A program made the translations under genes and the position numbers. Positions 4,328-26,454 of a DNA stretch of 64,000 bases are shown here, in pieces (the stretch's first letter is position 1; each line of letters begins with the position of its first letter). The notes below the pieces were generated by a model. It saw only the letters and a list, made by a program, of their open reading frames with translations, was not told the DNA's origin and made no database searches. The stretch spans positions 109,190 through 173,189 of the forward strand of contig JAUIHW010000003.1 in NCBI GenBank assembly GCA_030431775.1, written 5' to 3'. The DNA comes from Gammaproteobacteria bacterium (GTDB taxonomy: Bacteria > Pseudomonadota > Gammaproteobacteria > Pseudomonadales > JAUIET01).

Positions 4328-5479
4328 TTAGCTGCGCACTGTCGCAAAGCAGGTGCGCAGTTCATTCACAAACAGGTCCGGTTGTTCAAAGGCGGCGAAA
4401 TGCCCTCCCTCATCCAGCTCGTTCCAGTGGATCAGCTTGGTGAAGCGTTTCTCAGCCCAGCGTCGCGAGCAGAGAAATACTTCCTTGGGAAACACACTGC
4501 ACCCCGTTGGCATGCTGACTTCTTCCAGCGACTGATCGTTGAAGCTCTCCCAGTACAAGCGGCCCGATGAGGCGCCGGCATTGTTCAGCCAGTAAAACAT
4601 GACGTTGTCGATCATCTCGTCTCTGCCGAGTGCATTTTCCGGGTGTTTCGCTCCGTCACGCTCGCAGTCCGTCCAGGCCCAGAACTTTTCTACAATCCAG
4701 GCCAGCTGCCCGCTGGGAGAATCCGCCAAACCGTAGCCCAGGGTTTGCGGCCTGGTGCTTTGCTGCTTCGAGTAGCCAGAATCCTGTTTGTCGTAATAAT
4801 CAATAGCCGCGAGCGCCTTCTGTTCAAGCTCAGTCATACTGTCCATCGTGTCCGGGTCCGGCGCGGCGATTACCAGATTGACATGGATGGCGGCGCAGTG
4901 TTCGGTTTCACTAATTCCCATACAGGTGGTCACCATCGCGCCCCAATCCCCACCCTGGGCTACGTATCGATCATAGCCAAGGCGCGCCATCAGCTCCCCC
5001 CAGGCGCGACCGATGCGCGCTGCATCCCAGCCTTCCTGCTGTGGTTTGCCTGAGAACCCATAGCCCGGCAGATTGGGTAGCACCAGGTGGAAGGCGTCCT
5101 CTGCTTTACCACCATGAGCTGTGGGGTTTACCAAGGGGTCAATGACTTTCAGAAATTCCACCGGGGAACCCGGCCAGCCGTGAGTCATAATCAGCGGCAG
5201 CGCATTGTCATGTGTACTGCGGATATGAAAGAAATGGATGTCCACGCCATCAATAGTGGTCACACTGGGATTCAGCTCGTTAAGGCGGGCTTCTGTGCGG
5301 TGCCAGTCGTAGTCGTTCTGCCAGTAGTTACAGAGTTCCTGCACATAGGCCAGTGGAATTCCCTGTCGCCAGTCCCCGGTTGTCTCGGCGTTTGGCCAGC
5401 GCGTGGCCGCCAGCCGGCGCTGCAAATCTTCAAGTTCATTGTCAGTAATGGCAATCGGTGCCGGCTTGATCGCGGTCAT
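4328..5479 (-). CDS. Epoxide hydrolase (microsomal-EH-like alpha/beta hydrolase with EH N-terminal domain)
   Basis: Motifs seen: ..ITDNELEDLQRRLAATRWPN.., HGWPGSPVEF, PGYGFSGKP. The likely start is MTAIKPAP at 5479, which overlaps the upstream SDR stop by 1 nt (TGATG). Confidence 0.85.
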   Translation of the reverse strand: MTAIKPAPIAITDNELEDLQRRLAATRWPNAETTGDWRQGIPLAYVQELCNYWQNDYDWHRTEARLNELNPSVTTIDGVDIHFFHIRSTHDNALPLIMTHGWPGSPVEFLKVIDPLVNPTAHGGKAEDAFHLVLPNLPGYGFSGKPQQEGWDAARIGRAWGELMARLGYDRYVAQGGDWGAMVTTCMGISETEHCAAIHVNLVIAAPDPDTMDSMTELEQKALAAIDYYDKQDSGYSKQQSTRPQTLGYGLADSPSGQLAWIVEKFWAWTDCERDGAKHPENALGRDEMIDNVMFYWLNNAGASSGRLYWESFNDQSLEEVSMPTGCSVFPKEVFLCSRRWAEKRFTKLIHWNELDEGGHFAAFEQPDLFVNELRTCFATVRS

Positions 5480-6243
5480 CAGGCTAACATCCCCCCATCC
5501 ACGGTGATGCACTCACCGGTTAAATAACTGGCCGCATCGCTGACCATGTACAACACGGTGCCGGCCATTTCATCGGGCTCCGCGTAGCGGGCCATTGGTA
5601 TCTGCTTAAAGGCCTCATTTACCAGCTCGTCGTTGTCAATAAGTGCGCCAGCGAACTTGGTGTTGGTCAGCCCGGGTAGCAGCGCATTCACCCGTATATT
5701 GAACTCAGCGCATTCTTTCGCAAAGGCCTGGGTCATGTTGATGACTGCCGCCTTGGTAATGGAGTAAATACCCTGATACAAGGCCGGTATGCGGCCATTG
5801 ACGGAAGCGGTGTTCACAATGCAGCCACCGCCATTTTCCCGCATGAGCTTTCCGCCCTCGACCGACATAAAGAAATAGCCGCGCATATTGACGTCGACGG
5901 TTTTTTCAAAGGCCGCCAGATCTGTATCCAGGATGTGTCCGAAATATGGATTGGTGGCTGCGTTATTAACCAGAATATCCAGCCGACCGTATTGCTGGCG
6001 AATATGCTTGAATACAGCGCTAATCTGCTCCACATCACCAACGTGACAGGCAAAAGCTGCGGCATTACCACCACTCTCGCGGATGCTGGCCGCTACCGCT
6101 TCACAACCCGCAATTTTGCGACTGGACACTATGACTGTGGCGCCCTGTTCAGCAAGCAATCGGGCGATGGATTCACCTATGCCTCGACTGGCACCAGTCA
6201 CCAACGCAATCTTGCCACTCAGATCAAAAAGTTTGGTACTCAC
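5479..6243 (-). CDS. Short-chain dehydrogenase/reductase (SDR)
   Basis: KIALVTGASRGIGESIA (TGxxxGxG) and YSITKAAV (YxxxK) are present. Confidence 0.9.
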   Translation of the reverse strand: MSTKLFDLSGKIALVTGASRGIGESIARLLAEQGATVIVSSRKIAGCEAVAASIRESGGNAAAFACHVGDVEQISAVFKHIRQQYGRLDILVNNAATNPYFGHILDTDLAAFEKTVDVNMRGYFFMSVEGGKLMRENGGGCIVNTASVNGRIPALYQGIYSITKAAVINMTQAFAKECAEFNIRVNALLPGLTNTKFAGALIDNDELVNEAFKQIPMARYAEPDEMAGTVLYMVSDAASYLTGECITVDGGMLA

Positions 6244-6275: not shown

Positions 6276-7316
6276 TTACAGTGCCTGCACGCGCTGCCAG
6301 CCAATCTCGGAAATCATTCGGGCGGCGTCCTTGAAAAGCAGAGCACGGTCCGAGCTGGCATTACCATCAATACCGCGCTTGTACACCCCCTGGATAATAC
6401 TGGCACTGCGAAACATGTTGAATATAAGGTAGAAGTCCCAGTTTTCGATAGTGCTGCGCCCAGCCGCTTCACAATAGGTATCCAGCATTTCCTGTTCGCC
6501 AGGGATGCCCAGCTCGGCTGCATTTTCCGGAATACCACGGCCACCGGATGTACTGACCCCGTGATAGTCCTGACAAAGATAGGCCAGATCAGCCATGGGA
6601 TGGCCCAGAGTACTTAACTCCCAATCCAGCACAGCAACGATGGACGGCTGCTGCGGATGAACCAGCACATTGCCAAGCCGATAGTCACCGTGAACGATCC
6701 CTGTAGCATCATCGTCAGGAATATTGTCAGGCAGCCACTCCATCAAGCGGTTCATATTGTCCAGTTCCTCGGTTTGCGAGGCCTGATACTGCTTACTCCA
6801 GCGGTTGATTTGGCGCGCGTAGTAGTTGCCTGGCCGGCCAAACTCAGCCAGACCAACTTCTTGCGGAGTAACTGAATGCAGCGCACCCAGTGTTCTGGCC
6901 AGGTTCAGATAAACCTCGCGACGTTCACCCGGCGAACTGTCCGGCATGGCACAATCAATGAATACTCGACCCTCCACATAGCCCATCACGTAAAAGCTGG
7001 TGCCGATTATTGATTTATCCTCGCACAGGCAGTACATGGTTGGCACCGGCACGGCGCTGTCAGCAAGTGCTTTCATCACCCGGTATTCGCGGTCTACTTG
7101 ATGGGCCGAAGGCAACAACTCCCCCGGGGGTTGCTTGCGCAGCACGTAATTCTGGGCTGGTGTCTGCAGCTTAAACGTCGGATTACTTTGCCCACCCTCA
7201 AACTGTTTTACAGTCAGAGGACCTTTAAACTCCGCCACCTCGGCAGCGAGGTATTCCTCGAGCCGCGCGAGATCGAGCTCATGCCCCTGGCGAATATCGG
7301 TTAACTCAACGCTCAT
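6276..7316 (-). CDS. Phosphotransferase family protein (APH / ACAD10-11 / LvaA-like kinase fold)
   Basis: IVHGDYRLGNVLVHP..VLDWELSTLGHPMADLAY is the Brenner/APH catalytic loop plus the DxE metal site. Confidence 0.8.
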   Translation of the reverse strand: MSVELTDIRQGHELDLARLEEYLAAEVAEFKGPLTVKQFEGGQSNPTFKLQTPAQNYVLRKQPPGELLPSAHQVDREYRVMKALADSAVPVPTMYCLCEDKSIIGTSFYVMGYVEGRVFIDCAMPDSSPGERREVYLNLARTLGALHSVTPQEVGLAEFGRPGNYYARQINRWSKQYQASQTEELDNMNRLMEWLPDNIPDDDATGIVHGDYRLGNVLVHPQQPSIVAVLDWELSTLGHPMADLAYLCQDYHGVSTSGGRGIPENAAELGIPGEQEMLDTYCEAAGRSTIENWDFYLIFNMFRSASIIQGVYKRGIDGNASSDRALLFKDAARMISEIGWQRVQAL

Positions 7317-7535: not shown

Positions 7536-8000
7536 ATGAAAATTGCCAGCAATTGCGTGGTATCCATTCACTACACCCTAACCAATGATGCCGGTGAAAC
7601 CCTGGATTCATCCGCAGGCGGTGACCCACTGAGCTACCTGCACGGAAATAATGGCCTAATTCCCGGCCTGGAACGGGAGCTGGAGGGCCGCGAGCCCGGT
7701 GATTCGTTTAAAGCCTCCATCCAGCCCGCCGATGCCTACGGCGAGCACAACCCACAGCTGGTACAGGAAGTACCACTGGAAGCCCTCGCGCAAATTGAAG
7801 AATTGCAGGTGGGCATGCAGCTGCAATCGCAGTCGCCGGATGGCCAGGTTCAGGTGTTGCAGGTTGATGCCATCGGCGACAGCACCGCCACATTGAATGC
7901 CAACCATGCTCTGGCCGGGCAGACCTTGCATTTTGATGTTTCTGTGGAAAATGTTCGTGAAGCGAACGATGAGGAAATCGCCCACGGGCATGCACACTAG
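7536..8000 (+). CDS. slyD: FKBP-type peptidyl-prolyl cis-trans isomerase SlyD
   Basis: MKIASNCVVSIHYTLTNDAGETLDSS..LSYLHGNNGLIPGLERELEG.., an insert-in-flap region, and a short His-containing tail (AHGHAH). Confidence 0.9.
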   Translation: MKIASNCVVSIHYTLTNDAGETLDSSAGGDPLSYLHGNNGLIPGLERELEGREPGDSFKASIQPADAYGEHNPQLVQEVPLEALAQIEELQVGMQLQSQSPDGQVQVLQVDAIGDSTATLNANHALAGQTLHFDVSVENVREANDEEIAHGHAH

Positions 8001-8008: not shown

Positions 8009-8776
8009 TTATTCGTTAATTGCAAGCACGTGGTCAGCCCGGCTCAGGGCCTGGCCATGCGGGCCATACTGCTGTTCGTGAAAGCCCACCTGAGTGGCCG
8101 AGAAATACAACAGGCTGGTCGTACGAGTACCATATTCTTCTCCCGCAATAAAAATCGACGAGAGCTGGCGCTCAGCCTCGAGGCCCACTCCGGTTTGTGG
8201 CAGTAAGTGGTCATCCGCCTGAGTCGCATCACGCATAATCTCCAGTATTTGCTCCACGTCCAGCGTTTCGGTCCGTTGTTCCAAGTGCTGTTCCAGTAAC
8301 GCGACCCCTCGCGACATCTTGGGCCAATAGTCGTCAACCGGCCCATTGCTCAAAGCGTGGTAGCCAGGCGTAAGGTCGACAACAGACTCGGTAACGCTGT
8401 TATACACCTGCAGCCCATGCTGATCGCCAAACAGCAGATTAAACGGGTTGTAGCGCTTGCCCTCTGCGACTAACTGTTCGCGCAAGCCGGCGTCAGACGC
8501 ACACTGCAGATAGCGGCGTACCCATTCCCCCCGGCTGAGCGCGCCATCTCGAGTGAGCGCTGGATTGCGAATATTGGTAATAGCCGCCACCCGGCCGGCA
8601 CGGGAAACCGCCAGCCAACTGCCACCCGCCAGAAGGTCACGCCCGCCGAAGATGTCGGCGTGTTCGGGCCAGTAGTCAGCGTTTGCGCTTGGGCGGGCAA
8701 ACTGTTCGTCTCGGTTAGCGGCAATCACCAGGGGGAAACGCCTGTGTACACCAAGCGCAACGAACAATATGCACAC
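8009..8776 (-). CDS. NRDE family protein (TANGO2-like, predicted N-terminal-Cys hydrolase fold)
   Basis: The protein starts MCILFVALG and contains the name-giving motif VIAANRDEQF. Confidence 0.8.
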   Translation of the reverse strand: MCILFVALGVHRRFPLVIAANRDEQFARPSANADYWPEHADIFGGRDLLAGGSWLAVSRAGRVAAITNIRNPALTRDGALSRGEWVRRYLQCASDAGLREQLVAEGKRYNPFNLLFGDQHGLQVYNSVTESVVDLTPGYHALSNGPVDDYWPKMSRGVALLEQHLEQRTETLDVEQILEIMRDATQADDHLLPQTGVGLEAERQLSSIFIAGEEYGTRTTSLLYFSATQVGFHEQQYGPHGQALSRADHVLAINE

Positions 8777-8781
8777 TACGT

Positions 8782-9465
8782 TTAGCTCAGCCCACTGACA
8801 GGCAGCAATGCACCGTGCACGGCGCTGGCATTCTCCGAACCGAGAAAGCAGATGACATTGGCGAGATCACGTGGCGCCACCCATTTAGCCGGATCGGCAT
8901 CGGGCATGTCGGCGCGGTTGCGCGGCGTGTCAATCACGCTGGGTAATACCGCATTCACATTGATTCCCTGCTCCCGCAGCTCGCCGGAAAGACTTTCAGT
9001 CAAGCGCATTACCACGCTTTTGGACGCTGAATAGGCGGACATCATCGCGTTGCCCTGCAATGCGCCCATCGCTCCAACATTCACAATCTTGCCATGCCCC
9101 TGTTTCTGCAGCACCGGTACCACCGCTTTCAAGACATTGCGAAGAGTGCTGACATTGAGCTTGAACATTTCATCCCATTGCGCGTCGTCCTCAGCGTGGG
9201 TCGGTACCCCCATGGCAAAGCCACCGGCGAGATTAAACACAGCGTCAATCTGACCCAGCCCGGCAAAGCACTGCTGGCAGGCAGCCAGGTCACACAAGTC
9301 CAGCGCAACGGTGCGAGCAGATTCCAGGCCAGCAGGCAGTGGGTCGGGAAACCTCAAATCGAGCAGAATGAGTTCGGCTCCTTGCTCGGCAGCAACCAGG
9401 CTGACCGTCTGCCCCAGACCACCGCCGGCTCCAGTAATAACAACTCTTTTATTCTGCAAAATCAT
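8782..9465 (-). CDS. SDR family oxidoreductase
   Basis: The likely start is MILQNKRVVITGAGGGLGQ at 9465 (GGAG SD upstream), and YSASKSVV is present. The track ORF extends to 9582, but that N-terminus overlaps the upstream gene. Confidence 0.85.
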   Translation of the reverse strand: MILQNKRVVITGAGGGLGQTVSLVAAEQGAELILLDLRFPDPLPAGLESARTVALDLCDLAACQQCFAGLGQIDAVFNLAGGFAMGVPTHAEDDAQWDEMFKLNVSTLRNVLKAVVPVLQKQGHGKIVNVGAMGALQGNAMMSAYSASKSVVMRLTESLSGELREQGINVNAVLPSVIDTPRNRADMPDADPAKWVAPRDLANVICFLGSENASAVHGALLPVSGLS

Positions 9466-9485
9466 GGTTTCTCCAGTCCTCATTC

Positions 9486-10013
9486 CTATTTTTTTCCACC
9501 AGCCACTGCGTTGCTTACCATTAACTGGCGCGTGAAGCGCAAACCAATCGGGAACAGCAACAGCCAGATAAAAGCGATGCACGCCAAGGCCAGCTCGGTG
9601 AGCACACCAAATTTTGCTGCTCCCATTTGCACCGCCGCAAGATAAGTAAGCGGCGCAACCACTGCTGCCAACAGAGCAGCAAACACTGGGCTATCCTGCA
9701 AAGGTCTAAAAGCGATATTAAAGGTAGTCGCAAATAATGGCCATAGTGCAGTCATCCACAACGGTGTCACGTTGCCGGCGTCAACTGGAATCAGCACGCC
9801 TTCCCTGTACAAGGCATTGTCCACCGAGAAGCCAATCAGCGTGGCAACTGCCAGCAACACGATGGCCCGATATCGCTGCTTCTCAACATAAAAATAAGCC
9901 GCTAGAACCGCAACAAACACCAGCGCTGATATCCAATTACGCAATGCCACACAAGCAAACCAGCCCAGACTGTAAAGCGCGCCATTTAACAACATCAAAG
10001 GCATAGTCGGCAT
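9486..10013 (-). CDS. Small polytopic membrane protein, DUF2878-like
   Basis: There are four to five hydrophobic helices. The N-terminal LLNGALYSLGWFACVALRN matches my recollection of the DUF2878 signature; this was not verified by search. Confidence 0.5.
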   Translation of the reverse strand: MPTMPLMLLNGALYSLGWFACVALRNWISALVFVAVLAAYFYVEKQRYRAIVLLAVATLIGFSVDNALYREGVLIPVDAGNVTPLWMTALWPLFATTFNIAFRPLQDSPVFAALLAAVVAPLTYLAAVQMGAAKFGVLTELALACIAFIWLLLFPIGLRFTRQLMVSNAVAGGKK

Positions 10014-10018
10014 AACAG

Positions 10019-12481
10019 TTACTCATCCAGTTGTTGCAAACGAATTGTCTCTCCCAGCTGGTCTGCGACGATTTCGGCTTCACAAAACGCCATATCCACC
10101 CATTCTTTATCGGCGTACAAGCGGGTTTGGTCGTCGTAGTGCTCTGACGCCGAATGACTGGATTGCGAATAGCTCAACAGCGCATAGGCATTTGGACAAT
10201 CACTTTCGTCCCAGTCTACTGTTTGCATGTAGCTGTTACCGTGACGTATATCACTGTAGCCCTCATTTTCCACCAGTTCCGACGTAATCACACTGAACAT
10301 CATAGAACCGGAACCGCCGTGGATGGGGATGCGCACCCCGTTGCGCTCGCTAAATTGCACCTCACCCCAGGGAGCGTCCAGCGCGATGTTGTTATCCAAC
10401 AGTCGCTGCACCGCATCGGCCAGCGCCTGGCGCACCATTTCCACAAGCTCCGCATCCGCCACATTCAGAGTGTTCGGGGTACCAACTGGATCGGCGGCAT
10501 TAAACGGAACGGCCCAAAGATTTTCCTGACCGCTTATATTCAACCAGAACTCGTAGAACAGCTGGCCGCCCACACTGTCGACGTTGTGCCGCCCATCCCA
10601 GGCGGCCAGCACACTGCAAGCCTGATTCATTGCCGCTTCGTTCGCAGAATAGGGACTCCAGTCAGCCACGGCACCGCATAGAGTCACCACATCGTCCCGA
10701 ATCAATTCCGCCGGCATATTGCGACTGCCAAACATCAATTCCTGCAGCAGTTCGGCAGTCACCCCAGGGGCACCCAGGCCATCGGTACCAGCCAGGCGTT
10801 GCTCCATTTGGGTAAAAGTAAGCCGTGTGCGCTGGCTTTGTTCCACGCCCTCAGCCCCAATGATCTCTGGGTAGCCGCTTAGCAAACTCGACGGATTTGA
10901 CAGCCAATAACTGTCATTGGCATTCGCCACATAGGTCTGGTTGATAAGCTTAGGCAGGCGCTGGTAACCAATGACCCCGGGTTGCGGCGAATCCTGGTCT
11001 TCCAGCAATTCGCAAGCTGCCCGCGAGCCGTCCAGCGTGGTCAGCCCAAAATCCGTCAGTAGTGGTGCAATTGGCCCGGTAATACAATCGCCACGTTGCT
11101 CATCACTGACATTGGCAATAGCGGAAATGTCCCCGTAGAAAGCAGTACCAGCGCGGTCGGCCGCAATGGTATTCACCCAGGGAATACCAATATTGGAAAG
11201 TGCGGTTTCCAGCTCGGCAATATTGCGAGACTGCGCAACATTACGCCAGGTCGTCAAACCGCGAAAGTTGCTGAAGTTGATGTCGCGCAAAGTAAACACT
11301 TTGCCAGTACCGGCTGCTATTGGCCAACCGGCCAGCAGACTATTGACGTCACCCAAATCCAAAATTGGGCCGAAATGGGAAAAATAGAAGGTATGCTCAC
11401 GGGTCTCGACCGCACCACCGTCGCCCTGCACTTCAATACTGATGGTTTGACTCGTGATATCGCGCATCTCACCTTCGAATTCATATTGCAGCGGGTTGTC
11501 CGGGTTCAGGTCTAATTCGTAAATCACAAAGCGGCTGCCAGTCGACACGGTATGGGTCCAGGCCAGGTCGCTGTTGAAACCGATACTGACCAGGGGAAAG
11601 CCGTGCAAGGCAGCACCCATCGCGTTGTAAGTGGGTTGCTCCTCCCCCTCGGGTTTCATGGTCAAATGCACCATCGCAAAGCGATTGCTGCCCTCCCATG
11701 GAAAATGCGGGTTACCCAGCAGGGCCCCTCGACCATGCTGGGTTGCGTCGCTGCCTACTGCGTAGGCATTGCTGCCCAGATCCTCCGGTTTGGGCAGGTC
11801 GATTCGCTCGATGGCTTCACGCAGCGCCGCAGGATCCAGGGATTTCACGCTGGCTTTAGGCCTAGAGACCGCCGCCGCTTCAGCTTGCGGTGGCTCAGCT
11901 GCAAAAATAAAGTCTGCCAGCGGATCGGTACTGGCACGAACCGAAAGTTTGCGCAGCACTTTTCCGTAGTCCACCAAATCAATTGGCCTGACCCAGGGAG
12001 CATCCCGACAACCGAGCTCATCGTCCGGCAGGTTTCCAACGCCGGTATCCTCCAGATAGCGATTGAACCCGGCCACATAGCCCTCAGCCAGGGCCAGGGA
12101 TTCCTCGTCAAAGGCCGATAAAACCACTTCTTCGACGTCGTCACCCAGCAATGCAAACACGAAATCACGCGACACGCTGCCTTCATCGGCGAAGAAGCGT
12201 TGCGACTGACCATTGGCGATGACGACCTCTCGCATCAGCACACAGTAGTTATCCCGCGCGTAGGCATAGCCATGACCAAAACCCAGGCTGCCCCAATCAG
12301 CTGCGGCTACATGCGGCACGCCGTATTCAGTAATGCGAAGTTCCGCCTCATACAGCACTTCGGCTGGAGGCGGCGCGGGAGGAGGTGGTGTTGAGGGCTG
12401 GGCGTCATCCGAGCTACTGCTGCAACCCAGCAAGCCTCCCAAGCCAATTATTGCTGCACCAAGGGTTTGAACTGCTTTCAT
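10019..12481 (-). CDS. Penicillin/AHL-acylase family Ntn hydrolase, lipoprotein
   Basis: A lipobox signal (GLGGLLG-C-SSSSDD) is followed by a Pro-rich linker. YGVPHVAAADWGSLGFGHGYAYARDN marks the alpha subunit. The spacer ends at DLG-SNAYAVGS..GNPHFPW, placing the nucleophilic Ser at the beta-subunit N-terminus as in PvdQ/QuiP/aculeacin acylases. Confidence 0.85.
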   Translation of the reverse strand: MKAVQTLGAAIIGLGGLLGCSSSSDDAQPSTPPPPAPPPAEVLYEAELRITEYGVPHVAAADWGSLGFGHGYAYARDNYCVLMREVVIANGQSQRFFADEGSVSRDFVFALLGDDVEEVVLSAFDEESLALAEGYVAGFNRYLEDTGVGNLPDDELGCRDAPWVRPIDLVDYGKVLRKLSVRASTDPLADFIFAAEPPQAEAAAVSRPKASVKSLDPAALREAIERIDLPKPEDLGSNAYAVGSDATQHGRGALLGNPHFPWEGSNRFAMVHLTMKPEGEEQPTYNAMGAALHGFPLVSIGFNSDLAWTHTVSTGSRFVIYELDLNPDNPLQYEFEGEMRDITSQTISIEVQGDGGAVETREHTFYFSHFGPILDLGDVNSLLAGWPIAAGTGKVFTLRDINFSNFRGLTTWRNVAQSRNIAELETALSNIGIPWVNTIAADRAGTAFYGDISAIANVSDEQRGDCITGPIAPLLTDFGLTTLDGSRAACELLEDQDSPQPGVIGYQRLPKLINQTYVANANDSYWLSNPSSLLSGYPEIIGAEGVEQSQRTRLTFTQMEQRLAGTDGLGAPGVTAELLQELMFGSRNMPAELIRDDVVTLCGAVADWSPYSANEAAMNQACSVLAAWDGRHNVDSVGGQLFYEFWLNISGQENLWAVPFNAADPVGTPNTLNVADAELVEMVRQALADAVQRLLDNNIALDAPWGEVQFSERNGVRIPIHGGSGSMMFSVITSELVENEGYSDIRHGNSYMQTVDWDESDCPNAYALLSYSQSSHSASEHYDDQTRLYADKEWVDMAFCEAEIVADQLGETIRLQQLDE

Positions 12482-12697
12482 TTTCTATACTCCGTAAGTC
12501 ACCGCAGTCTACCCAAAGTTGCTTAAGGCGTCACCACAGCGGCTTCACCGACAGTAGATGAACGGAGCATGCAGGCGACACGCGACATTGGTCACAGAAA
12601 CGAAAAGCCTGTCACGGTTCGGCGGGCTACAACTGGAAGTTTTGCATTCTTCTTGTATGTTTATTAAACGACATTCACGGTTTACGAGATATTGACC

Positions 12698-13816
12698 ATG
12701 ACCAATAAACTGACCGCTTTAATTGCTGCTTCCGGCCTGTGCATGGCGATCACTGTACCCCCGGCTTATGCAGCGGCTGAAAACCAAAACGAAAATGAAC
12801 AAGAAGAGAACGTGCTGGACCTGGATGCCATCTGGGCAAGTTTGCAGCAGTATTTGGGCAGCTTCTTTGTTGAACAGAACAAGGAACGCATTGCCGAAGC
12901 ACTGGATGCCGCCAAGACCGCTGCTGAGAAACGCGAAAATGGGCAGCAAACAAAGCCTACAGTACCGACAGCACAAGCCCCTGCAACACCTGTAAACAAC
13001 TCGGTTCCGCAGGCGGATTGGACAGCGGCCGCCAACAATTACCGCAACACCCGTTGGGGTCGGCAATTTCAGTTTTCCTACGGCAATGACTCGACCACAA
13101 ACGCGAATCCGCCGCTAACACAGCAGCCTCAGACGACAGGCGCTACTGAACAAAGAAAGAGTCAGCCGACCCAAACCTACACCGTGCCACAAACCATTGG
13201 CGGCAGCAGCATTAGTGACCGCGGCATCGCAGCCTGGCCAACGTTCCAACCGAGCGTACCCACTGCGCGACCCAGCCGGGAAGCGCCAGAGGTTGTCGCC
13301 CGCAGCCCCTTCGGCGCTAACAATTCACCAACGCGATCAACCCCAGTGCAAAAACCGGCTCCACAGTCCAAACCTCAGCCTGTGGCAAAGCCCGAACCCC
13401 AGCCTGTACCAAAGTCCGAACCACAGCCTGTGGTGGCACAGCCCAAGCCGCAGCCTGCAGCAGAAGCCGATCAGGTGGCTCAGGTTCAGCCGGCACAGAA
13501 TCCACAACCCGTGCAGGAACCGGAGCCTATTCCCCAGCCGGAGCCAGTGGTTGGCGAAGCCAAATTATCCTGGAGCATCCCGACCAAGCGTGAAAATGGC
13601 GATGACCTCAGTCTGGCCGAAATCGCGGCCTACGAGATCTACGTTACTGCCGAAAACGCCGGCACCAACCAGACCATCCGGGTGGATAATCGAAACCAGA
13701 CTCAGTACACGGTGGAACCGCTGAGCGCCGACACCTACTACTTCTCCATGGTGACCATTGATGTGGAGGGCGTCTACAGCGAACTGTCGCAGGTGGTCAG
13801 CAAAACCATCGATTAA
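12698..13816 (+). CDS. Secreted protein with a P/Q-rich low-complexity linker and a C-terminal fibronectin-III-like beta-sandwich domain
   Basis: The signal peptide is MTNKLTALIAASGLCMAITVPPAYA-AA. The linker contains KPQPVAKPEPQPVPKSEPQPVVAQPKPQP (about 24-bp imperfect DNA repeats). The C-terminus LSWSIPTKRENGDDLSLAEIAAYEIYVTAE..YTVEPLSADTYYFSMVTIDVEGVYSELS is FN3-like. Confidence 0.6.
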   Translation: MTNKLTALIAASGLCMAITVPPAYAAAENQNENEQEENVLDLDAIWASLQQYLGSFFVEQNKERIAEALDAAKTAAEKRENGQQTKPTVPTAQAPATPVNNSVPQADWTAAANNYRNTRWGRQFQFSYGNDSTTNANPPLTQQPQTTGATEQRKSQPTQTYTVPQTIGGSSISDRGIAAWPTFQPSVPTARPSREAPEVVARSPFGANNSPTRSTPVQKPAPQSKPQPVAKPEPQPVPKSEPQPVVAQPKPQPAAEADQVAQVQPAQNPQPVQEPEPIPQPEPVVGEAKLSWSIPTKRENGDDLSLAEIAAYEIYVTAENAGTNQTIRVDNRNQTQYTVEPLSADTYYFSMVTIDVEGVYSELSQVVSKTID

Positions 13817-20197: not shown

Positions 20198-20291
20198 TCA
20201 GGCACTATAAGAGGAAGCAGTATAAACTGCCGGCTGCCTTGCTTGTATGCCTGAGCTGGCGTTGAAACCCTGAGCACTATTGAGAGTCAGT

Positions 20292-21575
20292 ATGAGATTT
20301 TTCACCCCACGGCGCGCCATTGTGTTTGCAATAATCCCTTTGCTGCTTGTATTACAAGCGCAAGCGCAAGGCTTACCAATGGTAAAAGCCAGCGAAGTGG
20401 GCATGTCACAACAAGCCTTACAACGCATCAACGAGATGACCGCACGTAATATCGAGGCCGGGAAGCATGTGGGTTATGTGACGATGGTGGCACGCCACGG
20501 CAAAATCGTTCATTTTGAAGCGGCGGGAACAACCGGCCTTAATAGCAAGCAGAAAATGCAGAAAGACTCATTGTTCCGTATTTTCTCCATGACCAAACCG
20601 GTCACTACGGTTGCCGCAATGATGTTGTACGAAGATGGCTTGTTTCAGCTGTCAGACCCCGTCAGTAACTACATACCAGAATTAAAGGATCTGGTGGTGT
20701 TCGCAGAAGACGGTGAGCACACACCCGCACCGGCGATCACTATAGAGCAACTGATGACTCATACCGCCGGTTTCACCTACGGTTTTACCCGTGACCACCC
20801 CGTGGACGCGCAGTATCAGGATGTGCAGCTTTTGCGCAGCGGCTCCAGCGATGAGTTTATTAAAAAACTGGCCGCCATACCGCTGCGCTTTGAACCCGGC
20901 ACACGCTACTTTTACAGTGTGGCCACGGATGTTCTGGGCGTCCTGGTCGAGCGGCTCAGTGGCCAGACGCTGGCGGAGTTTTTTGCCGAACGGATTTTTC
21001 AGCCCCTGGGCATGCAGGATACTTTTTTTGAGGTGCCAGAAAACAAACTCCCGCGCTTCGTCACCAATCATGTCTGGGACTATGACGCACAGAAAATCAG
21101 CCTGATTCCGCCAGAGCGGCGCAATGACTATCAGAATGTTGCTGTATATTCCGGAGGCGGTGGGCTGGTATCCACAGCCATGGATTATATGATTTTCTGC
21201 GAAATGCTGCGGGCGGGCGGTATGTACAACGGCACCCGTCTACTCAGCCCAAAAACCGTGCAGTGGATGACCATGGACCATCTGAGCGAACAGGTGCGCA
21301 AGCACGGTGCAGATGAATTCCCCAGCATGCACCTGTACCCCGGCCAGTCCTTCGGTCTTGGCTTCGGTGTCATCATAAAACCCGGCCTGAGTCAGGTGGT
21401 CTCGTCCAAAGGCGAGTATTCCTGGGGTGGAGCCGCCGACACCAAGTTCTGGATTGACCCGGAGGAGGACCTGGTCGCCATTATCCTGACCCAGCTGATG
21501 CAGTCACCCTGGGAAACCCGCCATGAGATGAAAGTGGCGACTTATCAGGCACTGGAAAAGTTGGCCGGCGACTAA
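20292..21575 (+). CDS. Secreted serine hydrolase, beta-lactamase (class C / EstB-like) family
   Basis: The signal peptide is MRFFTPRRAIVFAIIPLLLVLQAQA. The SxxK motif occurs in FRIFSMTKPVT. A YSxx motif and a C-terminal W/GG region (YSWGGAADT) are also present. Confidence 0.85.
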   Translation: MRFFTPRRAIVFAIIPLLLVLQAQAQGLPMVKASEVGMSQQALQRINEMTARNIEAGKHVGYVTMVARHGKIVHFEAAGTTGLNSKQKMQKDSLFRIFSMTKPVTTVAAMMLYEDGLFQLSDPVSNYIPELKDLVVFAEDGEHTPAPAITIEQLMTHTAGFTYGFTRDHPVDAQYQDVQLLRSGSSDEFIKKLAAIPLRFEPGTRYFYSVATDVLGVLVERLSGQTLAEFFAERIFQPLGMQDTFFEVPENKLPRFVTNHVWDYDAQKISLIPPERRNDYQNVAVYSGGGGLVSTAMDYMIFCEMLRAGGMYNGTRLLSPKTVQWMTMDHLSEQVRKHGADEFPSMHLYPGQSFGLGFGVIIKPGLSQVVSSKGEYSWGGAADTKFWIDPEEDLVAIILTQLMQSPWETRHEMKVATYQALEKLAGD

Positions 21576-21672
21576 CTCAACGCATCATTGAGTTCGCTGA
21601 CTCCAACAGACAGCGAACCGGCCACTAAAATGTTACGCTAAGCACAGATAGTCCGTTTCTCAGGGAAAGACA

Positions 21673-24117
21673 ATGTCAGCTTTACTGTTTCTGCTCATCG
21701 TGCTCATTGCTAATGCCTGCCTGGCCTTTAATCGCGTCGGCCTGAAGCCCTTTGCTATCACTAATGTGGTGCTGCTCCTCGTTTACCTGGTTTTTGTTGA
21801 ACAGGCCTTTTTGTTGGGCGTTTTATTGGTTTTGCTGGCAGGTATCGGCGTTTTTCTTAACTTTGCGCCCCTGCGCCAGAAACTGTTGAGCGGCCCATCG
21901 TTTGGCATCTTTAAAAAAGTATTGCCGACCATGTCGACCACCGAAGCTGAAGCGTTAGAAGCCGGCACAACCTGGTGGGAAGGAGAGCTGTTTACTGGCA
22001 AGCCAGAGTGGGGCAAGTTACAACAGCATCCGAAGCCGGCATTGTCCGAGCGAGAGCAGGCGTTTATTGATGGCCCGGTGGAAGAGCTGTGCGGCATGCT
22101 TGATGACTGGACATTCTGCGAAGAATATGCCGATCTGCCGGATGAAGTGCTGGACTTTATTCACAAGCATAAGTTTCTCGGCATGATCATTCCGGAAGAG
22201 CACGGCGGGCTGCACTTTTCGGCTTATGCGCAAACCCGAGTGCTCACTAAAATCAGCGCAGTCAACGGTATTGCGGCGTTCTACATTGCCGTGCCCAATT
22301 CGTTGGGCCCAGGCGAGCTGCTGATGAAATATGGCACAGATGAACAACGGCAGCATTACTTGCCGCGCCTGGCAGATGGACTAGACCTACCGTGCTTTGG
22401 CTTAACCTCGCCGAGAGCCGGCTCAGACGCAGGCGCGATTCCCGACACTGGAGTCATTTGCGAGAGCGAATTTGAGGGCGAAAAGGTTCTCGGCATCAAG
22501 CTGAATTTCGATAAGCGTTACATCACCCTGGCACCCGTAGCAACCGTAATTGGCCTGGCGTTCAAGATGTATGACCCAGACAATTTAATTGGCGACGAGG
22601 AGGAGCTTGGCATCACCTGTGCGCTGATTCCAAGCCATCTTGACGGTATTGAAATTGGCCGGCGGCATGCACCGGTCGGTACGCCGTTCCACAACGGCCC
22701 GATCAAGGGCAAAGACGTATTTATTCCAATGAGTTACGTGATCGGCGGCCAGGAGATGATCGGCCAGGGCTGGAGAATGCTGGTTGAATGCTTGTCGGTG
22801 GGCCGCTGCATTACCCTGCCATCGGTTTCCAATTCGGTTGGCAAAAACGTGATTGCCACAACCGGCGCATACACCGCCATTCGCCGGCAGTTTAATTCTG
22901 CGATTGCCAATTTCGAAGGTATTCAAGAGGCTCTGGCTCGTATTGCAGGTTTCAGCTACATCATCGAGTCAGCGGTTAGTGTCACGGCAACAGCCATTGA
23001 CAGTGGCGAGAAGCCGTCAGTGCCGTCGGCCATTTTGAAATACCATTGCACCGAAATGGCGCGCACCATTCTCAACGATGGTATGGACATCAATGCCGGC
23101 AAAGCCGTGATTCAGGGGCCGAAGAATTACATCGCCAACCTGTATTCGAGTTTTCCGGTAGCAATAACAGTGGAAGGTGCAAATATCCTGACGCGCAGCC
23201 TGATTATCTTTGGTCAGGGCGCAATTCGTTGCCACCCCTACGTGCTACAGGAAATGGAAGCCGCTGCCGGCGATGATCTGGAGCAATTTGACCACGCTCT
23301 GTTCGGCCACATCGGCTTCGCGATCAGCAATGTGGTTCGCTCGCCGGTTCTGGCCGTGTTTGGGCGCTTGCTTCCATGTCATGGTGACCAGTTCAGCAAA
23401 CCTTACTATGCCGCCTTGAATCGCTACAGCGCGAGCTTTGCTGTAGCAACTGATATAGCCATGCTAACCATGGGCGGCAGCCTCAAATTCAGGGAAATGA
23501 CATCAGCCAGACTGGGCGACTTGCTGAGCACACTCTATCTGGCGTCAATGGTATTGAAGCACTATGAAAACGAGGGCTCGCCCGAGTGTGAGCAGCCCTT
23601 TGTTAAATACGCTTTGGATCATCTGCTGCACACCTTTGAGCAGCAGTACAAGCGGTTTGCTAACAATATGGGTGTGCCGGGTGTAGGGCCAATGCTGAAG
23701 TTAATCGCCTTTCCGGTCGGCTCACATCGTAAACCTCCTGCGGACACTACAATCAAGACAGTCGCCAACTCGGTCAGCCGGCCCACAGAAGCCCGGGAGC
23801 GTATTATGGCCGGCATTTATGCGACCAAAGACACCCCCGCGGGCAAAATGGGCGAAGTGATGGCGATGGTCTACGAATACAATGAGCTCGGCAGGAAAAT
23901 TCGAGCAGCGGTAAAAGACGGAAAGATTACCGACGTGGTTGGCTACCGGCAAATTAACGAAGCTGAAGAAGTGGGCGTATTGAGCAAAGAGGAAGCGGAC
24001 AAGGTACGCAAACTGGATGACGCCCGAATGGAGTTTATCCACGTTGATGATTTTGCCTACGATGAAATTGGTCGTAACCCGCTGCGCGAAAGTTCCTGGA
24101 CGCGTTCTGGCAAATAG
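21673..24117 (+). CDS. fadE: Large acyl-CoA dehydrogenase FadE (N-terminal membrane segment plus C-terminal DUF1974-type extension)
   Basis: The protein is 814 aa with N-terminal hydrophobic helices. ..GMIIPEEHGGLHFSAYAQTRVLTKIS.., ..FGLTSPRAGSDAG.. and ..IITVEGANILTRSLIIFGQGAIRCHPY.. are present. Confidence 0.9.
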   Translation: MSALLFLLIVLIANACLAFNRVGLKPFAITNVVLLLVYLVFVEQAFLLGVLLVLLAGIGVFLNFAPLRQKLLSGPSFGIFKKVLPTMSTTEAEALEAGTTWWEGELFTGKPEWGKLQQHPKPALSEREQAFIDGPVEELCGMLDDWTFCEEYADLPDEVLDFIHKHKFLGMIIPEEHGGLHFSAYAQTRVLTKISAVNGIAAFYIAVPNSLGPGELLMKYGTDEQRQHYLPRLADGLDLPCFGLTSPRAGSDAGAIPDTGVICESEFEGEKVLGIKLNFDKRYITLAPVATVIGLAFKMYDPDNLIGDEEELGITCALIPSHLDGIEIGRRHAPVGTPFHNGPIKGKDVFIPMSYVIGGQEMIGQGWRMLVECLSVGRCITLPSVSNSVGKNVIATTGAYTAIRRQFNSAIANFEGIQEALARIAGFSYIIESAVSVTATAIDSGEKPSVPSAILKYHCTEMARTILNDGMDINAGKAVIQGPKNYIANLYSSFPVAITVEGANILTRSLIIFGQGAIRCHPYVLQEMEAAAGDDLEQFDHALFGHIGFAISNVVRSPVLAVFGRLLPCHGDQFSKPYYAALNRYSASFAVATDIAMLTMGGSLKFREMTSARLGDLLSTLYLASMVLKHYENEGSPECEQPFVKYALDHLLHTFEQQYKRFANNMGVPGVGPMLKLIAFPVGSHRKPPADTTIKTVANSVSRPTEARERIMAGIYATKDTPAGKMGEVMAMVYEYNELGRKIRAAVKDGKITDVVGYRQINEAEEVGVLSKEEADKVRKLDDARMEFIHVDDFAYDEIGRNPLRESSWTRSGK

Positions 24118-24206
24118 CCGGCAGCACGCAAGCATAAAAGCAGCTCACTTGGCGTTTTGAACATACAGCATCAACCGGGCAGGCTCACAGCTGACTTCCA
24201 GGTCGG

Positions 24207-24821
24207 TCACGAATTCTGGCCAAATATAGCCTGGTGCCAAACTTGCGTTACTATCTGCGCGGCCTCGTCAAGCGGCACAGTGGTTTGCTGCAATTCTTCG
24301 TGGGCATACCAGCAGTAAGCGGATTGTTCCACCATAGAAACCATACTTTCCACTACCCGCCTGACCTGAACCTTGCCAACCTTCGTGATACCGTGCACTT
24401 TCTTCAGGGCATAGACATATCGGTCTATGTGGCGCTCCCGCATTTGCCACCAGATATCGCGGTCACGCTGGTCCACTGTGACCGCCTCAAACAGTGCGCG
24501 CATCAGGTCTCGGTTTTGGTAATAGCAGCCCAGGTAGCCCCGATTCGCTTCCAGCAGAGCCTGGTAGGGCTCGGTGGCAAAATCACTTTCCGCCGTGGCG
24601 GCCTGGTACAGGTCTTCATGCACGTTGGCTATCAGGTTGGCAAATAAGTCCTCCTTATTCTGGAAGTAGCGATACAAGGCACCCATGGACAAACCAGCCT
24701 CGACCGCCACATCACCCATGCGCATGGCCACGTAACCGTCGTGCGCAAAAATGGTGCGTGCCGCTGCCAGAATATTCTCGCGCGTCTTTTTGCCTTTGGG
24801 GGTTAAACTGTCTTCGCCCAT
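24207..24821 (-). CDS. TetR/AcrR family transcriptional regulator
   Basis: RENILAAARTIFAHDGYVAMRMGDVAVEAGLSMGALYRYFQNKEDLF is the HTH. Confidence 0.9.
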   Translation of the reverse strand: MGEDSLTPKGKKTRENILAAARTIFAHDGYVAMRMGDVAVEAGLSMGALYRYFQNKEDLFANLIANVHEDLYQAATAESDFATEPYQALLEANRGYLGCYYQNRDLMRALFEAVTVDQRDRDIWWQMRERHIDRYVYALKKVHGITKVGKVQVRRVVESMVSMVEQSAYCWYAHEELQQTTVPLDEAAQIVTQVWHQAIFGQNS

Positions 24822-24885
24822 CGATTCTAGCTACCTTTCAGTACAGGCGGAATTTTAAACCCAGGCCTGAGCAATGCAATCCTGC

Positions 24886-25683
24886 TTATGTAAAGCAGGC
24901 CCGGCCGTTCTTAAGCACTTCAGTGCCGCCGGCACTGGCGGAAAAAACCAGCTCCCCGGAACTGGTTTTGCCTGCGCTGATCGTCATTTGATCGCCGGGG
25001 AATACCGGAGCAGCCAGTTTGGCTGATAAGGATTGCAATGCAGTTGGCCGGGCATTCACCGCCTCGGCACAGGCCCGCGCCACTATACCCAGGGTGCACA
25101 GCCCATGCAGGATCGGGCGCTCAAAGTTATTACTTTTTGCTGTCTCCGGATCAATATGAATGGGGTGTCGATCTCCAGTCAAACGATACAACGCTGCCAG
25201 ATTGGTACTGGTTCTAAATGCTGTGCTCCAGCTTGGCTCTAGCTCGACCGGTGGCTCGCTGGCAGGGCCACGCTCTCCGCCCCAGTCACCGATGCCAGGC
25301 AGGAAAATGGTGTAGTTTGCGGTAAACACCTCCGAGGCCACCTCAATATCCACCACGGTCGCCCGCCCTTTATCCCACACGGCCTGCACCGATGCATTGG
25401 ATCTGATCGGACCGGTTGTGGGCATCGGTGTATGCATTACCAATGATTGCGAAGCGTGCAGGGACTGAGTTCTGTCATAGGCGCCCAGGTTTCCTGCCGC
25501 TTCCACTGCCCACAGGCCTAACGCACAGGCATAGCCTGGAAGCACCTGTAGATCACGCTCATACACCAGCTGCAAATCATCCGCGGGTGCGCCGACTGCC
25601 AGGGCGTAGAGGATCGCATCGCGCTCATCGTACTCAAGGTTGCGGCTTCCCAGATCATAACCGACCAGGTCTTTCAGGTGCAT
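24886..25683 (-). CDS. Double hot-dog MaoC-type (R)-specific enoyl-CoA hydratase (hydratase-2-like)
   Basis: The N-terminal hot dog (..DERDAILYALAVGA..) is followed by a C-terminal MaoC motif YRLTGDRHPIHIDPETAK..ILHGLCTLG. Confidence 0.8.
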   Translation of the reverse strand: MHLKDLVGYDLGSRNLEYDERDAILYALAVGAPADDLQLVYERDLQVLPGYACALGLWAVEAAGNLGAYDRTQSLHASQSLVMHTPMPTTGPIRSNASVQAVWDKGRATVVDIEVASEVFTANYTIFLPGIGDWGGERGPASEPPVELEPSWSTAFRTSTNLAALYRLTGDRHPIHIDPETAKSNNFERPILHGLCTLGIVARACAEAVNARPTALQSLSAKLAAPVFPGDQMTISAGKTSSGELVFSASAGGTEVLKNGRACFT

Positions 25684-25713
25684 TTTTGGTCTCCCCTTCC
25701 AACTGCTGATTGT

Positions 25714-26451
25714 TCATTCGTGAAGCTTTTGTTTGGCCTTAAGCAACGCGCTCCGACGTTCCGGTGAGTTCAGCCTCATCCGTCGTTGAACCTGCCAATA
25801 TTCCGCATCATAAGTACCGACGAAGATCGCATTCAGCATCTGCTTGCTGGCTGTCATGGCGGCGCTGTCATTATGTTCCGCCAGTTGAGCAAGCGCTTGC
25901 GCTTCGCCTAGCGTCTCTCCGGGTTCGGCAAGTCTGGAAAGCAGGCCACAGCGCAGCGCCTCCTGCGCATTCAGCCGCTCACCAAGAACCAGCAAGCGAA
26001 ACAATACATCACGCGGGTAGTGTTGGGCCCAGCGCACCACCGATTCAGGATTATAGAGCAGGCCAAGACGGGTTGCCGGAACCTGGAAGAACGCCCCGGT
26101 CGAGGCGATTCTCAGATCGCAGGCGAGCGATAAATCCACTGCAGCACCCAGACAAAACCCTTCCACTGCAGCAATAACCGGTACTGACGTTGCAGCAATG
26201 GCGGAAACCGCATCATCTATGGCATCGTCCACCTGCTGATCCCGTGCATCACCTTCCAGATCCCGCAAGTCAGCGCCGGCGCTGAAGTACCCGGTGCCAC
26301 CTGTAAGGATCACCGCGCGCACCGAGTCGTTTACTTCTGTGCGCAAGGTGCTGGCAATCTGCTTCAGTAAATCAACAGACAAGGCATTGCGCGCGTCAGG
26401 CCGATACACTTGCAGTTGCAGCACAGAACTTTGGTTCGACACCCGTAGCAT
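25714..26451 (-). CDS. Enoyl-CoA hydratase/isomerase family
   Basis: VILTGGTGYFSAGADL..AAVEGFCLGAAVDLSLACDLRI is present. Confidence 0.85.
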   Translation of the reverse strand: MLRVSNQSSVLQLQVYRPDARNALSVDLLKQIASTLRTEVNDSVRAVILTGGTGYFSAGADLRDLEGDARDQQVDDAIDDAVSAIAATSVPVIAAVEGFCLGAAVDLSLACDLRIASTGAFFQVPATRLGLLYNPESVVRWAQHYPRDVLFRLLVLGERLNAQEALRCGLLSRLAEPGETLGEAQALAQLAEHNDSAAMTASKQMLNAIFVGTYDAEYWQVQRRMRLNSPERRSALLKAKQKLHE

Positions 26452-26454
26452 CTT

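What the first reader, a model, noticed from the sequence alone, without database searches (positions are those of the whole stretch)
8009..12481. Four-gene operon linking an AHL/penicillin-type Ntn acylase lipoprotein to an NRDE (TANGO2-like) protein
- The intergenic gaps on the - strand are 5, 20 and 5 nt: acylase (820 aa, lipobox, SNAYAVGS beta-subunit N-terminus), then a DUF2878-like membrane protein, then an SDR, then the NRDE protein (MCILF.. N-terminal Cys, AANRDE motif).
- The NRDE/TANGO2 family has no settled biochemical function in any organism. Proposals centre on lipid, acyl-CoA or haem handling.
- A conserved operon with an N-acyl-amide hydrolase and an oxidoreductase would give a concrete hypothesis. 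The exported acylase would release a fatty acid or amine from an N-acylated compound (possibly acyl-homoserine lactones or lipopeptides or siderophores), and the cytoplasmic NRDE and SDR would process the product.
- The operon contains two predicted N-terminal-nucleophile enzymes.
Basis: partly seen in the sequence, partly recalled or inferred. Interest (0 to 1): 0.55.

Follow-up and report, generated by a model that had tools for sequence, protein, structure and literature searches.

The report
Lineage-restricted acylase–DUF2878–SDR–NRDE gene cluster
Four tightly packed genes really do link an exported N-acyl-amide acylase to an NRDE/TANGO2-family protein, but the link traces to one origin in one small clade of uncultured marine Pseudomonadales and says little about what NRDE/TANGO2 proteins do.

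Summary
On the minus strand lie a MacQ/PvdQ-type Ser-Ntn acylase lipoprotein (10019-12481), a DUF2878 membrane protein (9486-10013), a classical SDR (8782-9465) and an NRDE/TANGO2 protein (8009-8776). The gaps are 5, 20 and 5 nt, with no terminator or promoter match in them, so co-transcription is likely.

The interpretation, a conserved operon that could explain NRDE function, does not hold.
- The four-gene order occurs only in the nearest relatives (NRDE at least 57% identical), inside a longer collinear block.
- One more distant relative has acylase and NRDE directly adjacent, without DUF2878 and the SDR.
- The linked NRDEs and the linked acylases each form a single clade, so the link has one origin.
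- None of 80 NRDE loci from other species carries an acylase or a DUF2878 gene within 10 kb.
- None of 80 loci of acylase homologues carries NRDE, DUF2878 or an SDR orthologue (one weak generic SDR hit, 26% identity) within 6 kb.
- NRDE genes at 51-54% identity sit in other contexts (DAO, HlyIII). The sister acylase clade sits next to ChrR/sigma or patatin genes.
- DUF2878 normally belongs to the cfa/amine-oxidase/DUF1365 lipid-modification cluster.

A shared fatty-acyl pathway is possible but unsupported. Interest is low to moderate.

The parts
10019..12481 (-). Penicillin-amidase-family Ser-Ntn acylase (MacQ/PvdQ group), 820 aa, lipoprotein precursor
   Evidence: PF01804 1.3e-118. Best solved relative is MacQ, 5c9i/4yf9, E 4e-142; PvdQ E about 1e-119. 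NCBIfam PvdQ equivalog scores 548 bits, below the 950 cut-off.
12422..12433 (-). Lipobox L-L-G-C (residues 17-20); Cys20 is the predicted lipidation site
   Evidence: Sequence. Cys20 is invariant in alignment A2. A lipobox is found in 32 of 34 homologues.
11771..11773 (-). Ser237, predicted beta-subunit N-terminal nucleophile (GSNAYAVGS)
   Evidence: Beta chains of 8so5, 4yf9, 4m1j and 2wyb start at query residue 237. G236, S237 and N238 are invariant.
9486..10013 (-). DUF2878 integral membrane protein, 175 aa
   Evidence: PF11086 1.4e-28. The Kyte-Doolittle scan reports five windows above threshold, two of them overlapping, so at least four distinct segments. Present only in the closest clade and absent from L089.
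8782..9465 (-). Classical short-chain dehydrogenase/reductase, 227 aa, cytoplasmic
   Evidence: PF00106 4.7e-36. Motifs TGAGGGLG, NLAG and YSASK are present. The best NCBIfam hit is a FabG-like subfamily, 207 bits, below its 352 cut-off.
8009..8776 (-). NRDE/TANGO2-family protein, 255 aa, GTG start
   Evidence: PF05742 6.1e-60. Human TANGO2 structures 8sv7 and 9bwa match at E 1e-23. Weak C45 autoproteolytic acyltransferase hit, E 0.0024.
8705..8716 (-). N21-R22-D23-E24 motif of the NRDE protein. Cys2 is at 8771-8773.
   Evidence: M1, C2, N21, R22, D23 and E24 are invariant in 29 homologues.
12482..12691 (.). 210-nt divergent intergenic region, the only non-coding space large enough for the unit's promoter (inferred)
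   Evidence: Sequence. No sigma-70 consensus match was found there. The Shine-Dalgarno GGAG lies upstream of the ATG at 12481.

Best explanation
This is a real four-gene unit that is probably co-transcribed, but it is a lineage-specific mosaic rather than a conserved NRDE operon.

Inferred history:
- An exported MacQ/PvdQ-type acylase gene and an NRDE gene became neighbours once, in the ancestor of a small clade of uncultured marine Pseudomonadales whose acylase relatives are mostly Halieaceae.
- The DUF2878-SDR pair lies between them only in the window's sub-clade. DUF2878 usually belongs to the cfa / amine-oxidase / DUF1365 lipid-modification cluster.
- The order has since been inherited vertically, along with the surrounding backbone: rmlBADC, a secreted protein, the four genes, then an ACAD11-type kinase (APH) and an epoxide hydrolase.

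Likely biochemistry of each gene:
- The acylase is a membrane-anchored lipoprotein in the periplasmic compartment. It self-cleaves to expose Ser237 and hydrolyses N-acyl amides (acyl-homoserine lactones, possibly beta-lactams or other N-acylated compounds) into a fatty acid and an amine. This is inferred from homology to MacQ and PvdQ.
- The SDR and the NRDE protein are cytoplasmic. NRDE has the Cys2 and NRDE features of the TANGO2 fold, proposed to bind or hydrolyse fatty-acyl derivatives.
- Any coupling (released fatty acid, then uptake, then acyl-CoA pool, then SDR and NRDE) is inference only. Most relatives of each gene work without the others.
For: Gene identities and spacing.

No terminator-like or promoter-like site lies in the gaps. 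The few hits fall inside coding sequence and are no more numerous than in shuffled sequence.

Where the arrangement occurs:
- The same four-gene order is in L002/L003, L084/L085 and L086 (NRDE 57-59%, acylase 67-69% identical), always inside the same rml...APH-EHN backbone.
- It is also in a further MAG, with consecutive accessions MEM8498757 to MEM8498760.
- L089 (acylase 57%, NRDE 45%) has acylase and NRDE adjacent with a 76-nt gap and no terminator-like site. It lacks DUF2878 and the SDR, but has the same backbone, with the 254-aa SDR at 77% and EHN at 69% identity.

Single origin: neighbour-joining trees place all linked NRDEs in one clade and all linked acylases in one clade.

Where the link is absent:
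- P0012 and P0013 (NRDE 52-54%) are DAO-NRDE pairs. P0014 (51%) lies beside HlyIII.
- Acylases P0138 (60%), P0137 (57%) and P0142 (55%) lie beside ChrR/ECF sigma, patatin, and MerR/integrase genes.
- 80 NRDE loci from 80 GTDB species have no acylase and no DUF2878 within 10 kb, by tblastn and by HMM with working positive controls.
- 80 metagenomic acylase loci (36-60% identity, 57 of them with at least 1 kb downstream) have no NRDE, DUF2878 or SDR orthologue; the only hit is a 26%-identity generic SDR in L169.

DUF2878's usual context is the cfa cluster (PMC10012899; PhrR regulon, PMC12971978).
Against: - The acylase-NRDE adjacency has persisted to 45-57% amino-acid identity and through at least one rearrangement (presence or absence of DUF2878-SDR, FKBP and GST genes). 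That could reflect selection for co-expression.
- All four products can be read as handling fatty-acyl groups, and the surrounding window is rich in acyl-CoA catabolism genes.
- The locus samples are the best-scoring 80 of about 600 candidates in each scan, so rare independent occurrences elsewhere could have been missed.
- No transcript data were available.
Confidence: 0.7

Rival explanations
1. The first reader's hypothesis of a dedicated N-acyl-amide salvage pathway. The exported acylase releases a fatty acid or amine. DUF2878 helps the product across or into the inner membrane. The cytoplasmic SDR and the Cys-Ntn NRDE protein process it. The operon would then reveal the NRDE substrate class.
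For: - Spacing is tight: 5, 20 and 5 nt.
- The acylase-NRDE adjacency is kept in L089 without the other two genes and with no terminator-like site between them.
- TANGO2 is proposed to be a Cys-Ntn hydrolase of fatty-acid derivatives and an acyl-CoA binder (PMC13044924, PMC11867700).
- The NRDE protein gives a weak C45 acyltransferase hit.
Against: - The link has a single evolutionary origin.
- It is absent from 0 of 80 and 0 of 80 independent loci.
- It is broken in both directions at similar divergence.
- The compartments differ: the acylase is an exported lipoprotein, while the SDR and NRDE are cytoplasmic.
- DUF2878 and the SDR are dispensable for the pairing (L089).
Confidence: 0.18
2. 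NRDE is functionally tied to the genes on its other side rather than to the acylase. These are the ACAD11-type acyl-CoA kinase (APH), the conserved 254-aa SDR, the epoxide hydrolase and the nearby acyl-CoA dehydrogenase. Together they would form an oxidised or hydroxy-fatty-acyl-CoA catabolic neighbourhood. The acylase would be a bystander.
For: - In L002, L084 and L086 the APH gene directly follows NRDE on the same strand, followed by EHN, with an ACAD nearby.
- The window's APH matches the ACAD11 kinase domain (8v3v, E 4e-86).
- Orthologues of the 254-aa SDR (72-75% identical) lie 2-9 kb from NRDE in 7 Alteromonadaceae loci.
- TANGO2 binds acyl-CoA (PMC11867700).
Against: - In the window an opposite-strand FKBP gene separates NRDE from APH.
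- APH and EHN are absent from the 80 NRDE loci of other species.
- The SDR orthologues in Alteromonadaceae are on the opposite strand and several genes away.
Confidence: 0.1

Closest known systems
MacQ of Acidovorax sp. MR-S7 (PDB 4YF9, 5C9I; PMC5478981, PMC5566955)
   Same: - It is the best solved relative, matching at E 4e-142 over residues 43-817.
- Same Ser-Ntn fold family (PF01804).
- The beta chain begins at the aligned GSN motif.
   Different: - The window protein has a conserved lipobox and a Pro-rich linker.
- Its substrates are untested.
- It belongs to a clade of marine Pseudomonadales acylases whose named members are mostly Halieaceae, not to Acidovorax.
PvdQ of Pseudomonas aeruginosa (PDB 2WYB, 4M1J)
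   Same: Homologous alpha and beta subunits (E 4e-93 for beta, 3e-25 for alpha). It is the top NCBIfam model hit.
   Different: The score of 548 bits is far below the equivalog cut-off of 950. No pyoverdine or NRPS genes lie within about 10 kb on either side.
Human TANGO2 (PDB 8SV7, 9BWA) and Shewanella oneidensis HtpA/SO0126
   Same: - PF05742 over the full length.
- Cys2 and the NRDE motif are invariant.
- Shewanella NRDE proteins are 46-52% identical.
   Different: - No function is demonstrated for the window protein.
- In the fetched Shewanella loci the NRDE gene has unrelated neighbours: a membrane protein, a PlsC-type acyltransferase and an NTF2-like protein.
DUF2878 genes of the cfa / SDR / amine-oxidase / DUF1365 cluster (for example Vibrio cholerae VC1123 and the Aeromonas salmonicida cluster)
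   Same: Same Pfam family, PF11086, and a small multi-pass membrane protein.
   Different: - Here it sits between an acylase and an SDR, with no cfa, amine-oxidase or DUF1365 gene (PMC10012899; PMC12971978).
- It is only 31-34% identical to members found in the cfa context.

Membership tests
Penicillin amidase / AHL acylase (Ser-Ntn, PF01804) | Full-length match above the Pfam gathering score | tested here: met
   398 bits against a cut-off of 21.3, covering profile positions 2-673 of 675.
Penicillin amidase / AHL acylase (Ser-Ntn, PF01804) | Beta-subunit N-terminal Ser nucleophile at the autoprocessing site | tested here: met
   Ser237 aligns with residue 1 of the solved MacQ and PvdQ beta chains. 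G236, S237 and N238 are invariant. Actual autoprocessing was not tested.
Penicillin amidase / AHL acylase (Ser-Ntn, PF01804) | Export signal | tested here: met
   Lipobox LLGC with an invariant Cys20.
PvdQ (bifunctional pyoverdine / AHL acylase, NF051460) | Score above the equivalog cut-off, and a pyoverdine locus context | tested here: not met
   548 bits against a cut-off of 950. No NRPS or pvd genes in the flanks.
AHL acylase (functional class) | Hydrolysis of acyl-homoserine lactones | not testable with these tools
   This needs an enzyme assay. JGI annotations calling relatives 'acyl-homoserine-lactone acylase' are automatic.
NRDE / TANGO2 (PF05742) | Full-length Pfam match, N-terminal Met-Cys and the NRDE motif | tested here: met
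   204 bits against a cut-off of 22.6. M1, C2, N21, R22, D23 and E24 are invariant. Human TANGO2 structures match at E 1e-23.
DUF2878 (PF11086) | Pfam match and multi-pass membrane topology | tested here: met
   100.5 bits against a cut-off of 27. The Kyte-Doolittle scan reports five windows above threshold, two of them overlapping.
cfa-type lipid-modification cluster (cfa, amine oxidase, DUF1365, DUF2878, SDR) | Co-location with cfa, amine-oxidase and DUF1365 genes | tested here: not met
   None of these genes is in the window flanks. They are present around the DUF2878 homologue P0123.
Classical SDR (PF00106) | TGxxxGxG, NNAG-like and YxxxK motifs | tested here: met
   TGAGGGLG, NLAG and YSASK. 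No NCBIfam equivalog cut-off is reached.
Conserved functional operon (gene-neighbourhood criterion) | The same association recurs in phylogenetically independent lineages | tested here: not met
   One clade only. 0 of 80 NRDE loci and 0 of 80 acylase loci carry the partners.
Conserved functional operon (gene-neighbourhood criterion) | Single transcript | not testable with these tools
   There is only indirect support: the same strand, gaps of 5, 20 and 5 nt, and no terminator-like site in the gaps.

The most novel reading that the evidence does not exclude
In this clade the acylase-NRDE pair is kept together by selection. The cytoplasmic Cys-Ntn NRDE protein would act on the same chemical class as the exported Ser-Ntn acylase: N-acyl amides or their fatty-acyl or acyl-CoA products. 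This would give the first genetically tractable bacterial handle on the substrate class of TANGO2-family proteins.
Probability: 0.15. Interest if true: 0.6.

Novelty: new member of a known kind. Interest (0 to 1): 0.25.

Why it matters
TANGO2/NRDE function is an open question with medical relevance, and a bacterial operon partner would give a testable lead. Here the partner is not conserved. The association arose once and is inherited with its surroundings, so it carries about the weight of a single observation. It is worth a cheap experiment (acylase substrate panel, NRDE assays with acyl-CoA and N-acyl amides) but cannot support a general claim. The survey also shows that bacterial NRDE genes have no universal neighbour in the 78 loci whose neighbours were clustered, which limits what gene-neighbourhood inference can say about this family.

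Tried and rejected
1. PvdQ identity: rejected. The score is below the equivalog cut-off and there is no pyoverdine context.
2. DUF2878-SDR as a remnant of a ChrR/sigma-E photo-oxidative cluster, like the one beside the sister-clade acylase in L090: not supported. L090's 235-aa SDR is unrelated to the window SDR (BLASTP E 0.12), and L090 has no DUF2878.
3. Word-based homology search with DUF2878 gave only 4 hits, so its wider neighbourhood rests on one locus pair (L173/L174) and two papers.
4. The promoter and terminator scan gave counts no higher than in shuffled sequence. It is uninformative beyond showing no site in the gaps.
5. Rfam and tRNA scans of the whole window found nothing, so there is no riboswitch or RNA element and no taxonomic marker.
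6. A search for a universal NRDE neighbour found none. The recurrent neighbours are lineage-specific: aminotransferase, PlsC-type acyltransferase and DAO.
7. A literature search found no published gene-neighbourhood study of bacterial TANGO2 homologues.
Full report
**Observation**

The minus strand between 8009 and 12481 carries four ORFs exactly as described.
- Acylase: 820 aa, 10019-12481.
- DUF2878 protein: 175 aa, 9486-10013.
- SDR: its mechanical ORF runs to 9582, but the real start is the ATG at 9465. That start follows a GGAG Shine-Dalgarno sequence, gives 227 aa, and matches the independent gene call on the same contig.
- NRDE protein: 255 aa, 8009-8776. Its GTG start is validated because M1-C2-I3-L4-F5 are invariant in 29 homologues.

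The junction sequences show gaps of 5, 20 and 5 nt. Pfam assigns Penicil_amidase (1.3e-118), DUF2878 (1.4e-28), adh_short (4.7e-36) and TANGO2 (6.1e-60). The unit is closed off by a convergent FKBP gene (7536-8000, +) and a divergent gene for a secreted protein with no Pfam match (12692-13816, +). No terminator-like or sigma-70-like site falls in the gaps, and the few hits inside coding sequence are no more numerous than in shuffles. Co-transcription from the 210-nt region upstream of the acylase is therefore likely but unproven.

**What the genes are**

*Acylase.* Its closest solved relatives are MacQ of Acidovorax (5c9i/4yf9, E 4e-142) and PvdQ. MacQ is a characterised bifunctional AHL and beta-lactam acylase (PMC5478981, PMC5566955). 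The beta chains of these structures start at query residue 237, the Ser of GSNAYAVGS, and G236-S237-N238 are invariant in 21 homologues. The protein is not a PvdQ orthologue: it scores 548 bits against an equivalog cut-off of 950, and no pyoverdine or NRPS genes are nearby. Cys20 of the lipobox LLGC is invariant, and 32 of 34 relatives show a lipobox followed by a Gly- or Pro-rich linker. I therefore read it as an exported, membrane-anchored lipoprotein.

*NRDE protein.* It matches human TANGO2 crystal structures (E 1e-23) and keeps Cys2 and the NRDE motif. It also gives a weak hit to C45 autoproteolytic acyltransferases. This agrees with the published proposal that TANGO2 is a Cys-Ntn hydrolase acting on fatty-acid derivatives (PMC13044924). 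Other proposals are acyl-CoA binding (PMC11867700) and haem trafficking by the Shewanella homologue HtpA (PMC10470608), the latter disputed (PMC12782551).

*SDR.* It has the classical TGxxxGxG, NLAG and YxxxK motifs and no export signal.

*DUF2878.* It is a multi-pass membrane protein.

**Is the association conserved?**

*Close relatives.* NRDE proteins 57-59% identical (P0002, P0006, P0007) sit in the same four-gene order. A further MAG shows it through consecutive accessions. In every case the flanks are also collinear: rmlBADC and the secreted protein lie upstream, and an APH kinase and an epoxide hydrolase lie downstream. This is vertical synteny of a whole region, not independent retention.

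*One step further out.* L089 (acylase 57%, NRDE 45% identical) has the acylase and NRDE directly adjacent. The gap is 76 nt with no terminator-like site, and a terminator-like site follows NRDE. DUF2878 and the SDR are absent, but the same backbone lies downstream. So the acylase-NRDE pair is shared across the clade, and the DUF2878-SDR pair is confined to the window's sub-clade. Whether that reflects gain there or loss in the L089 lineage is not resolved.

*Trees.* Neighbour-joining trees place all acylase-linked NRDEs in one clade and all NRDE-linked acylases in one clade. The link arose once.

*At comparable divergence the link is absent in both directions.*
- NRDE P0012 and P0013 (52-54%) follow a DAO-family oxidoreductase with a gap of 2-8 nt. 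P0014 (51%) lies beside HlyIII.
- Acylases P0138 (60%), P0137 (57%) and P0142 (55%) lie beside ChrR/ECF-sigma/photolyase, patatin, and MerR/integrase genes.

*Broad samples.*
- 80 NRDE loci came from 80 GTDB species: Shewanella, Alteromonadaceae, Arenicellales, sponge symbionts, Betaproteobacteria, Bacteroidota, Firmicutes and others. Most have 10 kb on each side.
- None contains an acylase or a DUF2878 gene, by tblastn or by profile HMMs with working positive controls. Only generic SDRs of 26-32% identity appear, 1-10 kb away on the opposite strand.
- 80 metagenomic loci of acylase homologues (36-60% identity, 57 with at least 1 kb downstream) contain no NRDE, DUF2878 or SDR orthologue within 6 kb; the only hit is a 26%-identity generic SDR in L169.
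- Clustering the neighbours of 78 NRDE loci found no universal partner.

*Usual home of DUF2878.* It normally sits in the cfa / SDR / amine-oxidase / DUF1365 / lipocalin cluster (PMC10012899), which belongs to the PhrR regulon in Vibrio (PMC12971978).

**Interpretation**

The four genes form a real and probably co-transcribed unit. As evidence about NRDE function it amounts to one evolutionary event. The most economical reading has three parts.
- An exported N-acyl-amide acylase and a cytoplasmic NRDE protein became neighbours once.
- The DUF2878-SDR pair is found between them only in the window's sub-clade.
- Each gene family normally functions without the others.

A shared theme of fatty-acyl handling is plausible. 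The window and its backbone are rich in acyl-CoA metabolism genes, including an ACAD11-type kinase that directly follows NRDE in relatives. The data do not single out the acylase as the relevant partner. The compartments also differ: the acylase is exported, while the SDR and NRDE are cytoplasmic.

I give about 0.7 to the lineage-specific mosaic reading, about 0.18 to a true N-acyl-amide salvage pathway, and about 0.1 to NRDE being tied instead to the downstream acyl-CoA genes.

**Novelty and score**

All four genes are new members of known families. I found no published description of this gene order, but it is narrow and has a single origin. Interest is 0.25. It is a reasonable lead for a cheap enzymology test and not a strong clue to TANGO2 function.

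Noticed in passing
window 6276-7316 (-): The APH-family gene is a close homologue of the kinase domain of ACAD11 (PDB 8v3v, E 4e-86; 3dxp, E 4e-111). In relatives L002, L084 and L086 it directly follows NRDE on the same strand. In the window an opposite-strand FKBP gene (7536-8000) lies between them.
   Followed up: partly
window 5479-6243 (-); L015, L017, L024, L029, L037, L068, L079: A highly conserved 254-aa SDR (NF005446 equivalog, 451 bits against a cut-off of 373) has 72-75% identical orthologues 2-9 kb from the NRDE gene in seven Alteromonadaceae genomes. It also lies near NRDE in L089 and near the acylase in L177. This may be a remnant of older synteny.
   Followed up: partly
L004-L006, L008-L010, L012, L016, L017, L019, L021, L027, L036, L038, L043, L046, L054: A 192-aa PlsC-type acyltransferase (PF01553, 1.6e-15) lies within three genes of NRDE in 17 Alteromonadales loci. 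Position and strand vary. This is of interest because of the reported shift in lysophosphatidic acid and phosphatidic acid in TANGO2 deficiency.
   Followed up: partly
L087/L088 6829-8768; L175 459-2392; also L011, L013, L014, L018, L032: A DAO-family FAD oxidoreductase (PF01266) immediately precedes NRDE with a 2-8 nt gap in one Pseudomonadales clade. There it follows an FGGY kinase-GDPD fusion gene. A DAO-like gene also recurs within three genes of NRDE in Arenicellales and sponge-symbiont genomes.
   Followed up: partly
window 12692-13816 (+): A divergently transcribed gene encodes a secreted 374-aa protein with no Pfam or NCBIfam match. It has a Pro/Gln-rich low-complexity middle. Only the C-terminal 90 or so residues are conserved (78-80% identical in L002, L084 and L086). 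It is always upstream of the acylase in the four-gene clade.
   Followed up: partly
window 20280-35160: A dense run of acyl-CoA and lipid catabolism genes: beta-lactamase-fold esterase, large bacterial-type acyl-CoA dehydrogenase, TetR, MaoC hydratase, enoyl-CoA hydratase, amidase, SDR, alpha/beta hydrolase, acyl-CoA synthetase, luciferase-like monooxygenase and family III CoA-transferase.
   Followed up: no
L090 4732-8351: The sister-clade acylase (60% identical) lies beside a ChrR anti-sigma / ECF sigma pair, a photolyase, a 235-aa SDR and a glutathione peroxidase. This looks like a photo-oxidative-stress cluster. Its SDR is unrelated to the window's SDR (E 0.12).
   Followed up: yes
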